From Chlamydiales bacterium (GTDB lineage: Bacteria; Chlamydiota; Chlamydiia; Chlamydiales; SM23-39), in contig DATIHO010000064.1 in NCBI GenBank assembly GCA_035480615.1, positions 5,259 to 69,258 of the forward strand: a stretch of DNA of 64,000 nucleotides. Direction: 5' to 3'. The notes beneath the pieces are model-generated. The model ran no database searches. It was given only the letters and a program-made list of their open reading frames with translations, and had not been told where the DNA came from. Made by a program: the position numbers and the translations under genes. Shown here piece after piece: positions 54,237-55,932 of this stretch (positions are counted from its first letter, which is position 1; the number at the start of each line of letters is the position of its first letter).

Positions 54237-54335
54237 GAGAGTGTCTGCAAATTAAATTTCAGTCGATTTTCGGGATGGTTTTGGAGGATTTTCGATCGAA
54301 AATCGCCAAAATCATCCAAAAATTCGACAGAATGG
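54237..54335. repeat. Family B variant element with terminus GAGAGTGTCTGC and an internal palindrome centred on CGATCG
   Basis: CAGTCGATTTTCGGGATGGTTTTGGAGGATTTTCGATCG and CGATCGAAAATCGCCAAAATCATCCAAAAATTCGACAG are imperfect reverse complements. Confidence 0.7.
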
Positions 54336-55860
54336 TCATCTATTTCTTACGCATTTATCAAAAAGAGTAGGAAATCGATGTTGTGGGTCATATAGCTGTT
54401 TTAATTTTTCGTAAGTACCATTGTTGTAGTACAGTTTTTCAAACTGTTCTTTTGAATAGTAACTCCTGGAATACAAAGATTTTTTTCCACCAATTTTATG
54501 TAAATATTCTTCTATTTTTCGATTGTAATAATTTGGTTCCAATGGATCCGCTTTTGTTGCAAACAATCCAAAGTCAACATGCATTTGTGATGTAGGGGAC
54601 GTCCATAAGGGAGTTGGAAGAGTTTCTTGCTTGATTGGACAGATAAAAATGGGATGAATCTTGATTTCATTTTTCAACCAGTGATAAAAATCAGATCCTT
54701 TATTCATAGGAATGGCAATATCTTGTATGACCTCTTCTTGTTCTGTTTTCGGCCGAGAAAAAGGAGCAATTACATGATTGTAAAATGTCTGTATGAATCG
54801 ATTGCATCGACTTAAACGGTCGGCACGTAAAATGAATGGTCCTATTGTACTGCGCACCTTTGGATTTTGAAGGAATAAATTCTCTGTAGACCAAAAACTG
54901 TCTCTATCCCAACGCCATAGATATTCTTTGATCGGGAAGCTTTCCGCAGATTTAGTTTGAATTGCTTTATAGTAGATTTCTTTTTTCAGATAGTCTGCTG
55001 CATGAGTATAAGACGGAACATCAACGGCCTTTCCTGTGACGATGACCATGTTGTCCGGAGAAAAAATCGCTCCGTCAATAAAATCATATTTTTCATGGTT
55101 TTTACACAAGCCTTTCATTTTTTGAAAAAATGCCGTGATATTGTTCTCATGGCAATACTCAACGTCAACATAGGGTTTTGCGGGCTCTAATGCGATTTTC
55201 GCACTGAGAATATACCCTAAAGTTCCATAGGAATTTGGAAGCCCGAAAAACAATTCTTTATTTTGCACTGGGGAACAAACCAAGATCTCCCCCGCAGCAG
55301 TCAGTACCTCTATTTCAAGTACTGAATGATGAAAAAAGCCCATGTTTAAAACTCGAAGATTCTACGGCAAGTCCTGAAATAGCGCCTCCAATAGTAATAC
55401 CCCGTAATTCCGGCGTTACTTTCGGTCGCAGCCCTTTTTGCAGTGTACTGTCCAAAAGGTCGTAAAATGTTGTAAGTCCCTGGACATGCGCTGTTTTTGC
55501 TTGTTCATCAATGTGCACCACCTGGTTTAGCCCGCGAAGATCGAGATGCGTGGAACTGAGTACTCTGGGACGATATAAAAATGTGGTTGCCTTAGGTTTT
55601 AAAACAATTTGATCTTCTTGAGACAATTTTGCTTTGAATTCTTTTTGAATCTTTAGGCAGTGCTCATGATGAGCCACGCTGAGATTTTTATTATAAATTC
55701 GAGATGCCGGCATTTGAATTGCCATTTCGCTTACTGACCAAATTGTGTTAAAAATAAAAAAAGCTGCACAAGACACTTTTGAAAAAAAAGTGGGATCTTG
55801 TTGCGATTTCTGCTGCGCTTGATTTGATCTTGAAATAAGAGGAACAGTGATTGCATTCAT
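54336..55860 (-). pseudogene. DHCR24/DIMINUTO-like FAD-linked oxidoreductase, split by a 1-nt frameshift in an A6 run
   Basis: The upstream ORF ends ...GGAISGLAVESSSFKHGLF. The downstream ORF begins GFFHHSVLEIEVLTAAGEIL. Deleting one A at 55332-55337 fuses them. The C-terminal part has the HPIFICP, VDFGLF and FPTLFDK pattern collinear with DHCR24. Confidence 0.7.
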
Positions 55861-55873
55861 AATGAATTCCTTT

Positions 55874-55932
55874 AGAAGCTGTACTAAAACTCAGCTTCTT
55901 AGAGAGTGTCAGGTTAATATGCAGACACTCTC
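55874..55932. terminator. Two adjacent family B-derived hairpins downstream of dnaA
   Basis: AGAAGCTG-TACTAAAACT-CAGCTTCT, then GAGAGTGTC-AGGTTAATATGCA-GACACTCTC. The second ends 1 nt before the dnaA stop codon. Terminator function is inferred. Confidence 0.45.

What the first reader, a model, noticed from the sequence alone, without database searches (positions are those of the whole stretch)
54237..55932. The eukaryote-like DHCR24-type gene sits in a cassette bounded by 12-bp inverted termini between two convergent core genes
GAGAGTGTCTGC begins 1 nt after the stop codon of the T3S chaperone gene, at 54237. Its exact reverse complement, GCAGACACTCTC, ends at 55932, 1 nt before the dnaA stop codon.

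Between these termini lie family B arm sequences at both ends and a single cargo gene, the frameshifted FAD oxidoreductase. This geometry resembles a non-autonomous element carrying a passenger gene. It offers a plausible route by which a eukaryote-like gene was acquired or moved.
Basis: partly seen in the sequence, partly recalled or inferred. Interest (0 to 1): 0.7.

Follow-up and report, generated by a model that had tools for sequence, protein, structure and literature searches.

The report
Transposon stubs flanking an acquired oxidoreductase pseudogene
The matching 12-base ends are real, but they are most likely the tips of two separate decayed copies of a small stop-codon-seeking transposon, so the frameshifted bacterial-type oxidoreductase gene between them is an ordinary acquired gene rather than the cargo of a mobile cassette.

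Summary
GAGAGTGTCTGC and its reverse complement directly abut the stop codons of the CesT-type chaperone gene and of dnaA. The match extends to 18/19 nt and is not chance.

In 69 related chlamydial genomes the two genes are convergent. In 49 they overlap or lie at most 168 nt apart, and none carries the oxidoreductase there. The 1.7 kb is therefore an insertion, at a junction that holds other genes in 13 lineages.

The 12-mer is the outer end of a repeat subfamily ("B2") of the window's family B. Family B shares its ends with an 843-bp IS5-family insertion sequence. All 14 complete copies found are flanked by a duplicated TAA/TTA triplet, which explains why copies sit on stop codons.

The 54237-55932 unit fails that test (TAA versus CTA). 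Its right end is a self-contained 31-nt stub flanked by TTA/CTA. No other such pair encloses genes in about 1.5 Mb examined.

The gene is a full-length DHCR24 homologue, but it nests among bacterial proteins (37-61% identity, against 25-28% to animal DHCR24). It has low GC3 and one extra T in a T6 run.

Verdict: a gene acquired from another bacterium, next to transposon debris. The cassette reading is unlikely but not excluded.

The parts
53718..54236 (+). CesT-family type III secretion chaperone gene. Its stop codon TAA is at 54234-54236.
   Evidence: Pfam CesT, E = 2.9e-26. Homologues of 77-91% identity occur in many chlamydial metagenome-assembled genomes. The glgX-chaperone-dnaA-yidC gene order is conserved.
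54237..54261 (+). Terminal module of a B2-type repeat copy, called E1 here. It contains the left 12-mer at 54237-54248 and is preceded by TAA.
   Evidence: It aligns without gaps in the register of family B terminal modules, directly before GTCGATTTT. It matches the copy at 63394 at 17/28 positions; only 23 of 127,944 window 28-mers do as well. Homologous ends occur in L120, L026, L006, L150 and L048.
54262..54328 (.). Inner palindrome of E1 (GTCGATTTTCGGG...CCAAAAATTCGAC), a shortened family B body. It forms a long hairpin lying between the stop codons of the chaperone gene and the oxidoreductase gene.
   Evidence: (I19, I23). RNA fold centroid -34.5 kcal/mol, z = -3.9 (+ strand) and z = -4.25 (- strand).
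54329..54332 (+). AGAA, the only remnant of E1's distal terminal module. The rest of that module and its flanking triplet are missing, and the oxidoreductase stop codon follows 3 nt later.
   Evidence: Compared with complete elements, where the inner arm ...AAATCGAC is followed by AGAAGCT.... Sequence read.
54336..55860 (-). DHCR24-family FAD oxidoreductase gene, about 507 codons, broken into two ORFs (55860-55315 and 55343-54336).
   Evidence: Pfam FAD_binding_4. 921 homologues at E <= 1e-10. tblastn of P0002 and P0003 gives two pieces in frames -2 and -3 that meet at 55336-55340. GC3 is 0.31-0.32 against a window mean of 0.42, sd 0.06.
55331..55336 (-). Frameshift site: a T6 run on the coding strand (A6 on the + strand). 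Homologues predict T5 (G-L-F-H-H).
   Evidence: Four other overlapping ORF pairs in the window are different genes, so no other frameshift was seen.
55872..55901 (.). Stub of a canonical family B element: GAAGCTG-TACTAAAACT-CAGCTTC (55875-55898), flanked by TTA at 55872-55874 and TTA at 55899-55901. On the - strand it is followed by AGGAA and, 11 nt after the triplet, the ATG of the oxidoreductase.
   Evidence: It folds as an 8-bp hairpin. The same terminal sequence and a flanking TAA/TTA duplication occur in 14/14 complete elements.
55902..55932 (.). H, a 31-nt stub of a B2-type element: GAGAGTGTC-AGGTTAATATGCA-GACACTCTC. It contains the right 12-mer at 55921-55932 and is flanked by TTA (55899-55901) and CTA (55933-55935).
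   Evidence: D11, I2. Hairpin of 10 pairs, -15.8 kcal/mol, z = -4.85.
55933..57453 (-). dnaA gene. Its stop codon TAG reads as CTA at 55933-55935 on the + strand.
   Evidence: Pfam Bac_DnaA, Bac_DnaA_C and DnaA_N. The C-terminus aligns to the last residues of relatives' DnaA.
14766..14941 (.). Reference copy for comparison: a complete canonical family B element (14769-14938) flanked by TTA on both sides, lying between two convergent genes. The G of its end completes the stop codon TAG at 14767-14769.
   Evidence: (I1). It is 72-84% identical to elements in metagenome contigs.

Best explanation
What it is:
- The two 12-mers are the outer ends of two separate, decayed copies of one subfamily (B2) of the window's family B repeats.
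- Family B is a set of miniature, non-coding derivatives of an IS5-family insertion sequence. That insertion sequence inserts into TAA (TNA) triplets and duplicates them.

Why the ends abut the stop codons:
- TAA is also a stop codon, and the duplication restores it. Copies therefore survive exactly at gene ends.
- One B2 copy (E1, 54237-54332) landed on the TAA of the chaperone gene.
- Another landed on the stop codon of dnaA and has shrunk to a 31-nt hairpin (H, 55902-55932). A stub of a canonical family B copy lies beside it.
- The two host genes are convergent, so the two element ends face each other as an inverted repeat.

The gene between them:
- It is a bacterial-type member of the DHCR24 family.
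- It came in horizontally, 11 nt downstream of the dnaA stop once the stubs are discounted. This junction is empty in most relatives and holds other genes in some.
- It was not demonstrably carried by the repeats, and it is now disabled by one extra T.

Shown: the repeat identity, the target duplication rule, the empty sites, the phylogenetic position and the frameshift. Inferred: the order of events and the independence of the two copies.
For: 1. Element ends.
- The left 12-mer lies in the terminal-module register of a family B copy.
- Complete B2 elements with ends of the form GAGnnTGTCT... occur in L120, L026 and L006 (GAGnnTGTCTGC in L120 and at one end of L006). L006 is one of the two closest relatives found, with the chaperone 90% identical.

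2. Family and target rule.
- An 843-bp element in L090 carries the same ends as canonical family B.
- It encodes DUF4096 (E = 1.1e-27) plus DDE_Tnp_1 (E = 2.4e-21) and is flanked by TAA/TAA.
- All 14 complete canonical elements have identical flanking TAA or TTA triplets.
- B2 copies have TGA/TGA, TAA/TAA and TTA/TTA.

3. The rule applied to this locus.
- The canonical stub at 55875-55898 has TTA/TTA.
- H has TTA/CTA. That is one transition away, and on the dnaA strand it is a stop-to-stop change (TAA to TAG).
- The whole 54237-55932 unit has TAA/CTA, which is not a duplication.

4. The same habit elsewhere in the window.
- Family B ends overlap stop codons at 14767-14769 and 63394-63396.
- A third family B stub, at about 25557, also lies between convergent genes.

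5. Empty sites and a variable junction.
- See for the empty sites.
- Fillers elsewhere are protein kinase genes (five loci), an Exo_endo_phos gene, enolase and unknowns.

6. The gene is foreign and bacterial.
- GC3 is about 2 sd below the window mean.
- It nests in a bacterial clade.
- Its homologues sit in unrelated contexts without these repeats.
Against: - Both B2-type ends in the 64-kb window are at this one locus and are 18/19 identical. Family B has at least five other terminal modules in the window, and none is of the B2 type. That is unexpected for two unrelated insertions.
- H keeps nt 1-19 of a B2 terminal module, while E1 keeps only the first 4 nt (AGAA) of its distal module. The two truncations are nearly complementary, as if one element had been split by the 1.58 kb between them.
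- The flanking duplication of H is imperfect (TTA/CTA).
- H-like hairpins next to family B elements in L086 and L088 have no duplication, so a 31-nt stub is not an established class.
- No autonomous insertion sequence with B2-type ends was found.
- Only 64 kb of the source genome could be read.
Confidence: 0.55

Rival explanations
1. One B2 element once filled the chaperone-dnaA gap, so the two 12-mers are its own two ends. A 1.58-kb segment carrying the oxidoreductase gene was later inserted into its distal terminal module. On this reading the gene went into an element; it was not carried by one.
For: E1's AGAA (54329-54332) plus TTAATATGCAGACACTCTC (55914-55932) rebuilds almost exactly the reverse complement of the left terminal module (TGAA-AT-TTAATTTGCAGACACTCTC), with only about 2 nt missing. 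This explains why the only two B2-type ends in the window sit here and are 18/19 identical. Complete elements of this family lie between convergent genes elsewhere in the window (14769-14938).
Against: The flanks are TAA and CTA, whereas all 17 complete elements examined have identical triplets. The GAGAGTGTC at 55902-55910, which gives the right end its own hairpin, is left unexplained. An empty site with zero spacer plus a TAA duplication would leave an extra TAA next to the dnaA stop, and none is there.
Confidence: 0.2
2. The whole 54237-55932 segment is or was a mobile unit: a gene captured between two inverted B2 ends and moved by a transposase supplied in trans, as in composites bounded by miniature transposons.
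For: The outer ends are inverted, 18/19 identical and of a type that ends real mobile elements. The unique DNA between the repeats is little more than the ORF and its ribosome-binding site, with 7 and 10 nt to spare. Relatives have empty sites. The gene is compositionally foreign.
Against: There is no 3-bp duplication around the unit (TAA/CTA). The only direct repeat available (CTA...CTA, with an extra A) implies an empty site, ATCTACAATTG, in which the chaperone gene loses a stop codon that relatives conserve. No second copy and no other gene-enclosing pair occurs in the window plus 1.47 Mb. The closest homologues of the gene lack such flanks. Pairs of canonical ends 261 nt or more apart that have matching or near-matching triplets enclose only elements of 315-863 nt: the 843-bp insertion sequence, a degenerate 863-nt copy and repeats of 315-352 nt. 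None encloses cargo.
Confidence: 0.1
3. The gene arrived on a circular or looped DNA that also carried a B2 copy. It integrated by a single crossover within the 9-14 nt shared with a B2 stub (H) already lying between the two stop codons.
For: A 13/14 direct repeat (TCTAAGAGAGTGTC at 54232-54245, TCTTAGAGAGTGTC at 55897-55910) brackets the insert (D11). Removing the insert leaves TAA-H-CTA, a 31-nt gap with one hairpin, which is typical of relatives (28-57 nt). Joining the two ends of the insert recreates the junction canonical end-TTA-B2 end, which exists as such in L120.
Against: The shared stretch is very short for homologous recombination. No recombinase and no circular form is in evidence. 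Part of the direct repeat is chaperone coding sequence on one side and a family B end on the other, so it may be fortuitous.
Confidence: 0.1
4. The 12-mers are the two arms of an ordinary host terminator hairpin that was split by the insertion, or they are a chance match.
For: Many relatives have one hairpin whose arms abut both stop codons. Deleting 54256-55913 would leave a 38-nt near-perfect palindrome.
Against: The sequence is not private to this site. It is the terminal module of a repeat family and stands in register with its inner arm. The chance probability is about 7e-8.
Confidence: 0.03

Closest known systems
Miniature inverted-repeat elements derived from IS5-family insertion sequences. 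The IS1031/IS427 groups have ends starting GA/GAG and a 2-4 bp duplication of TNA; this is my recollection of ISfinder and Siguier et al. 2015, not checked here.
   Same: Short non-coding elements with terminal inverted repeats that begin GAAG or GAG. They have a 3-bp TAA/TTA/TGA duplication. An 843-bp relative has the same ends and a two-ORF DUF4096 + DDE_Tnp_1 transposase.
   Different: The elements here are nested palindromes: a hairpin inside each terminal module plus a long inner palindrome. No autonomous partner with the B2-type end was found, and the window holds no transposase. My paper searches found no description of miniature transposons in Chlamydiae.
Correia/NEMIS elements of Neisseria, and REP/BIME repeats
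   Same: Small palindromic repeats concentrated just downstream of genes, between convergent or co-directional ORFs. They are likely transcribed and fold into stable 3' hairpins (PMC3733652, read; folds).
   Different: Different sequences, and probably a different transposase class from REP elements, which use IS200/IS605-type RAYT enzymes. The duplicated target here is a 3-bp triplet that doubles as a stop codon.
Composite units bounded by two miniature transposons, such as integron mobilisation units in Enterobacteriaceae and Acinetobacter (from my own knowledge)
   Same: A gene lies between two copies of a miniature transposon in inverted orientation.
   Different: Those units are flanked by a target duplication and recur at other sites. 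This one has no duplication and no second copy in the data at hand.
Minimal mobile elements of Neisseria: variable gene cassettes between conserved flanking genes (from my own knowledge)
   Same: A fixed pair of core genes (chaperone and dnaA) with different genes, or nothing, between them in different lineages.
   Different: The comparison here is between species or genera of uncultured Chlamydiota, not strains. Exchange by flanking homology was not tested.
DHCR24/DWF1 delta(24)-sterol reductases of eukaryotes
   Same: FAD_binding_4 domain, and end-to-end homology over 461 residues (27% identity, E = 6e-52) to a human DHCR24 sequence. That sequence was written from memory and then verified as 97% identical to mammalian DHCR24 entries.
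   Different: The protein groups with bacterial 'FAD-binding oxidoreductase' proteins at 37-61% identity. These come from Chlamydiales, Actinobacteria, Variovorax, Nitrospira and candidate phyla. It does not group with the animal clade. The substrate is unknown and the gene is frameshifted. The sterol reductases already reported in Protochlamydia, Legionella and Coxiella belong to the unrelated ERG4/ERG24 family (PMC2667531).

Membership tests
IS5-family-derived miniature transposon (family B and its B2 subfamily) | Terminal inverted repeats shared with an insertion sequence that encodes a DDE transposase | tested here: met
   Met for canonical family B. L090 111-953 has the ends GAAGCTGTCCTAAAACC.../...GGTTTTAAGACAGCTTC and encodes DUF4096 plus DDE_Tnp_1. 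For the B2 end (GAGAGTGTCTGC...) no autonomous partner was found. Its link rests on the shared inner arms and the same architecture.
IS5-family-derived miniature transposon (family B and its B2 subfamily) | Short direct duplication of the target flanking each copy | tested here: met
   14/14 complete canonical copies have TAA/TAA or TTA/TTA. B2 copies have TGA/TGA (L006), TAA/TAA (L120) and TTA/TTA (L026). In the window, the canonical stub at 55875-55898 has TTA/TTA and H has TTA/CTA.
IS5-family-derived miniature transposon (family B and its B2 subfamily) | Many dispersed, non-coding copies in a genome | tested here: inconclusive
   Canonical family B modules occur at 14769, 14938, 25583, 55875 and 63397, with partial copies at 32445 and 48292. 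B2-type ends occur only at this locus within the 64 kb. The rest of the genome could not be read.
   The flanks are TAA (54234-54236) and CTA (55933-55935). The alternative, CTA...CTA with an extra A, implies an empty site that removes the conserved stop codon of the chaperone gene.
   The only far-apart B2 pair in the window plus about 1.47 Mb of loci is this one. The 12-mer occurs once in 1.03 Mb of related chlamydial loci, unpaired. This is limited by not having the whole source genome.
   18/19 nt inverted ends. Whether a transposase recognises them cannot be tested here.
DHCR24/DWF1 delta(24)-sterol reductase | FAD_binding_4 domain and full-length homology to DHCR24 | tested here: met
   Pfam PF01565, E = 6.6e-09 on the N-terminal ORF. 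27% identity over 461 residues, E = 6e-52. The reference sequence was validated.
DHCR24/DWF1 delta(24)-sterol reductase | Groups with the eukaryotic enzymes rather than with bacterial paralogues | tested here: not met
   In the neighbour-joining tree on 440 columns, the animal DHCR24 sequences form a long separate branch. The window protein sits with P0002-P0004 inside a bacterial long-form clade. No plant or protist sequences were included.
DHCR24/DWF1 delta(24)-sterol reductase | Sterol delta-24 reductase activity | not testable with these tools
   No solved DHCR24 structure or curated bacterial model matched. The best PDB matches are cytokinin dehydrogenases, over the FAD domain only. NCBIfam gave only sub-threshold matches.
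Host bidirectional terminator hairpin split by an insertion | Arms are unique host sequence, not part of a repeat family | tested here: not met
   The arm is the terminal module of a repeat family found in several genomes.

The most novel reading that the evidence does not exclude
Pairs of these stop-codon-targeting miniature transposons can capture and move whole genes in environmental Chlamydiota. The 54237-55932 unit would then be a captured-gene transposon whose flanking duplication has been lost or was never made. Obligate intracellular bacteria, which have few known vehicles for gene transfer, would gain a gene-shuffling device.
Probability: 0.1. Interest if true: 0.6.

Novelty: new member of a known kind. 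Interest (0 to 1): 0.3.

Why it matters
As submitted, the finding suggested a new vehicle for bringing a eukaryote-like gene into a chlamydial genome. The evidence points to something more ordinary. A gene of bacterial origin was dropped into a permissive gap between two convergent core genes, and it is surrounded by debris of a small transposon family.

What remains of some value:
- This family of IS5-derived miniature transposons is widespread in metagenome contigs and occurs in several chlamydial metagenome-assembled genomes. My searches of the held papers found no description of it.
- It inserts into TAA and so accumulates exactly on stop codons.
- This gives a simple rule for reading similar 'inverted termini next to stop codons' elsewhere in these genomes. 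It also warns against taking such geometry as proof of a cassette.
- The chaperone-dnaA junction is a recurrent site of gene gain across the group.

Tried and rejected
- Chance: rejected (about 7e-8 for this geometry).
- Split host terminator: attractive at first, because relatives have one hairpin between the stop codons. Rejected once the 12-mer proved to be a family end.
- A 9-bp target duplication (GAGAGTGTC...GAGAGTGTC) around an insert at 54246-55901: rejected. It leaves the further 9/10 match of TGCAAATTAA to the hairpin loop unexplained, and the insert ends are not inverted repeats.
- A TA duplication of the Tc1/IS630 type, and a CTA duplication: rejected. The implied empty site removes the chaperone gene's conserved stop codon.
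- Integron-cassette analogy (ORF plus palindrome): not pursued. No integrase or attC-type core is visible.
- REP/RAYT analogy (GTAG before H): the left copy lacks it, and the TAG is simply the stop codon.
- Looking up the source contig failed. The window's own product P0001 is not on record, so no more of the genome could be read.
- The closest homologues of the gene gave no shared context and no repeats.
- The plasmid collection holds no DNA match, only distant protein homologues.
- Rfam has no family here, only sub-threshold long-hairpin matches.
- The promoter and terminator scans found nothing useful at either end.
- The PDB and NCBIfam gave no specific functional assignment.
- No transposase related to the L090 one is present in the window or in the other loci.
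Full report
**Observation.** The window reads glgX (-, 51604-53538), a CesT-family type III secretion chaperone gene (+, 53718-54236), two overlapping ORFs of one FAD oxidoreductase (-, 55860-55315 and 55343-54336), dnaA (-, 57453-55933) and yidC (-). GAGAGTGTCTGC lies at 54237-54248 and its reverse complement at 55921-55932. There is no other copy in 64 kb, even with one mismatch allowed. Both copies touch the stop codons directly. The inverted match runs to 18/19 nt, or 20/22 nt with the TA of both stop codons. 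With GC at 0.433, the chance of this placement is about 7e-8. A third copy of GAGAGTGTC at 55902-55910 pairs locally with 55924-55932, so the dnaA side carries a complete hairpin ("H"; 10 pairs, -15.8 kcal/mol, z = -4.85). The left 12-mer has no local partner.

**Is the segment an insertion?** I searched one genome per species with the chaperone protein and obtained 80 loci, all from uncultured Chlamydiota.
- The order glgX, chaperone, then dnaA and yidC on the opposite strand is conserved.
- Among the 69 loci that hold both genes, the two stop codons overlap or lie at most 5 nt apart in 22. The gap is at most 168 nt in 49, usually with one hairpin. It is 214-678 nt in 7 and 0.9-5.7 kb in 13.
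- None of the 80 loci contains a homologue of the oxidoreductase.
- The large fillers differ between lineages: protein kinase genes in five loci, an Exo_endo_phos gene, enolase, a multi-gene block and unknowns.
- The closest relatives (chaperone 90-91% identical, L005 and L006) have an ordinary short hairpin gap.

So the 1.7 kb is a lineage-specific insertion at a junction that has gained genes repeatedly.

**What are the 12-mers?** The window holds a dispersed repeat, family B.
- Its full copy at 14769-14938 is a nested palindrome. It has a terminal module GAAGCTGTCCTAAAAC...C with its own small hairpin, an inner arm GTCGATTTTGGGG..., and the mirror image of both.
- At the locus, the left 12-mer is the start of a 25-nt stretch that stands exactly where a terminal module should, directly before an inner arm and a complete but shortened inner palindrome at 54262-54328.
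- MAFFT aligns this stretch without gaps. It matches the copy at 63394 at 17 of 28 positions, and only 23 of 127,944 window 28-mers do as well.

I scanned metagenomes with the canonical terminal 17-mer and obtained 71 loci. A dozen or more of them carry clear family B elements 72-84% identical to the window's full copy. Among them, and among the chlamydial loci, are complete 170-175-nt elements whose terminal modules are of the finding's type:
- L120: TAA|GAGTCTGTCTGCGGATTAAGCTTCT|GTCGATTTTTGGG at one end, and the mirror image at the other.
- L026: between glgX and the chaperone gene.
- L006: GAGGGTGTCTGCAAAATGAGCTTCT|GTCGATTTTTCGG.
- L150 (one end only, cut by the contig end) and L048: L048's element is a hybrid 110 nt downstream of the chaperone gene.

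These are documented. I call this subfamily B2. The 12-mer is therefore a transposable-element end.

**Which family, and how does it insert?**
- All 14 complete canonical elements found in the window and the loci are flanked by identical triplets, TAA/TAA or TTA/TTA. In the metagenome loci the search pattern fixed one flank, but the other flank is independent.
- The three complete B2 copies have TGA/TGA, TAA/TAA and TTA/TTA.
- In L090 an 843-bp element with the same ends and TAA/TAA flanks encodes two overlapping ORFs, DUF4096 (E = 1.1e-27) and DDE_Tnp_1 (E = 2.4e-21). This is the layout of an IS5-family transposase.

Family B is thus a set of miniature derivatives of an IS5-family insertion sequence with a 3-bp TNA duplication. 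My recollection is that this fits the IS1031/IS427 groups; I did not check that here. Because the target TAA is also a stop codon and the duplication restores it, copies can sit exactly on gene ends. In the window, family B ends overlap stop codons at 14767-14769 and 63394-63396. Those two copies, and a third stub at about 25557, each lie between convergent genes.

**Applying the rule to the locus.** On the dnaA strand the sequence reads: TTG | TAG | H | TAA | GAAGCTG-AGTTTTAGTA-CAGCTTC | TAA | AGGAATTCATT | ATG of the oxidoreductase.
- The canonical stub has a perfect duplication.
- H has TAG/TAA, one transition apart and stop-to-stop.
- On the other side, the chaperone's TAA is followed by the B2 terminal module and the inner palindrome. 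The element then breaks off after AGAA, the first 4 nt of its distal module, 3 nt before the oxidoreductase stop codon.
- The whole unit 54237-55932 is flanked by TAA and CTA, which is not a duplication.
- The only direct repeat that can be drawn (CTA...CTA, with an extra A) implies an empty site, ATCTACAATTG, in which the chaperone gene would lose a stop codon that relatives conserve right after ...KI.
- No other far-apart pair of B2 ends exists in the window plus about 1.47 Mb of loci.
- Canonical pairs 261 nt or more apart with matching or near-matching triplets enclose only elements of 315-863 nt: the 843-bp insertion sequence, a degenerate 863-nt copy and repeats of 315-352 nt. None encloses cargo.

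**The gene.** The reconstructed 507-residue protein has 921 homologues at E <= 1e-10.
- The best are 59, 51 and 50% identical. They lie in bacterial contigs with unrelated neighbours, and no family B or H sequence is beside them.
- Another homologue is in Chlamydiales bacterium SCGC AG-110-P3 (49%). Yet another has neighbours such as RdgC.
- Cultivated Actinobacteria and Variovorax carry 34-35% homologues annotated as FAD-binding oxidoreductase.
- Against a human DHCR24 sequence written from memory, and then verified as 97% identical to mammalian entries, it aligns end to end at 27%.
- In a neighbour-joining tree on 440 trimmed columns, the animal enzymes form a separate long branch and the window protein nests among bacterial long-form proteins.

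It is a DHCR24-family protein, but it is not specifically eukaryote-like. The caveat is that no plant or protist sequences were included. The eukaryote-like sterol reductases already described in Protochlamydia, Legionella and Coxiella belong to the unrelated ERG4/ERG24 family.

Its GC3 (0.31-0.32) is about two standard deviations below the window mean, consistent with foreign origin. The reading frame is broken by one extra T in a T6 run. Both halves are otherwise intact and align to homologues throughout. The four other overlapping ORF pairs in the window are different genes. The break is therefore either very recent or a single assembly error.

**Most likely history (inferred).** Two B2 copies and one canonical copy landed on the stop codons of the chaperone gene and dnaA and then decayed. 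The oxidoreductase gene arrived separately, downstream of dnaA and on the same strand, as the kinase genes did in other lineages.

Two facts keep rivals alive:
- The only two B2 ends in the window are here and are nearly identical.
- H retains nt 1-19 of a terminal module while the left element retains only the first 4 nt of its distal one. This is what a single element split by a 1.58-kb insertion would look like.

That reading, however, fails the duplication test and leaves H's inner arm unexplained. A single crossover between a resident H and a B2 copy on incoming DNA would explain the 13/14 direct repeat (D11), but it rests on 9-14 nt of identity. The mobile-cassette reading is the least supported.

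**Verdict.** The segment is an insertion bounded by transposon ends. It is probably not a cassette, and the gene is not eukaryote-like. The case is a new member of a known kind, of modest interest.

Noticed in passing
window 56956-57125 (inside dnaA) and 46976-47139: A palindromic repeat of about 170 nt (29-nt inverted arms, 97% complementary) lies in frame inside dnaA, with an 88% identical copy at 46976-47139. It adds roughly 55-60 residues to the linker region of DnaA that relatives lack, much like the Rickettsia palindromic elements found inside genes.
   Followed up: partly
L090 111-953: An 843-bp IS5-family insertion sequence (DUF4096 + DDE_Tnp_1 in two overlapping ORFs, with a long A/T run between them). 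It has the same ends as the window's family B and TAA/TAA flanks, so it is the likely autonomous relative. Its right flank begins TAA|GAGACTGTTAACGG, which resembles window 25587 GAGGCTGTTAACGATCTCTC and hints at a third end type.
   Followed up: partly
L005-L084, gap between the chaperone gene and dnaA: The gap between these two convergent core genes is a recurrent site of gene gain across uncultured Chlamydiota. Pkinase-domain genes occur in L012, L015, L026, L033 and L075, an Exo_endo_phos gene in L017, enolase in L053, a 5.7-kb block in L045, and unknown genes in L008, L016, L023, L060 and L083.
   Followed up: partly
window 14766-14941, 25557-25594, 63394-63440, 32445-32498: Family B copies or stubs sit between convergent genes, or at the 3' end of a gene (32445-32498). 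At 14767-14769 and 63394-63396 they overlap the stop codons. The gene at 14892-15530 (-) appears to take its last 19 or so codons and its stop from the element.
   Followed up: partly
window 45678-49521: Three tandem paralogous genes (345, 424 and 347 codons) with 68-92% identical stretches and repeated upstream regions. Short 24-nt repeats (ATATATCGAAAATTTCAGACCCGA) lie at 47137-47222 (D1, D2, D5, D7-D11, D17, D18).
   Followed up: no
window 38851-38970: Four overlapping copies of a 48-nt unit spaced 24 nt apart (CATGAACATGGAGGTGGCGG...), inside the ORF at 38701-39042 (D4). I did not check which strand or frame is translated, nor what the repeat encodes.
   Followed up: no
L048 4315-4487 and L026 7786-7957: In other chlamydial genomes the same repeat family also sits next to the chaperone gene. 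L048 has a hybrid element (B2-type end on one side, canonical end on the other) 110 nt downstream of it. L026 has a complete B2 element in its upstream region, ending about 45 nt before the start codon.
   Followed up: partly
L002 6190-6975: Two genes downstream of a 50% homologue of the oxidoreductase lies a gene with DUF1295/Steroid_dh domains. This could hint at a lipid or steroid-related role for the family.
   Followed up: no
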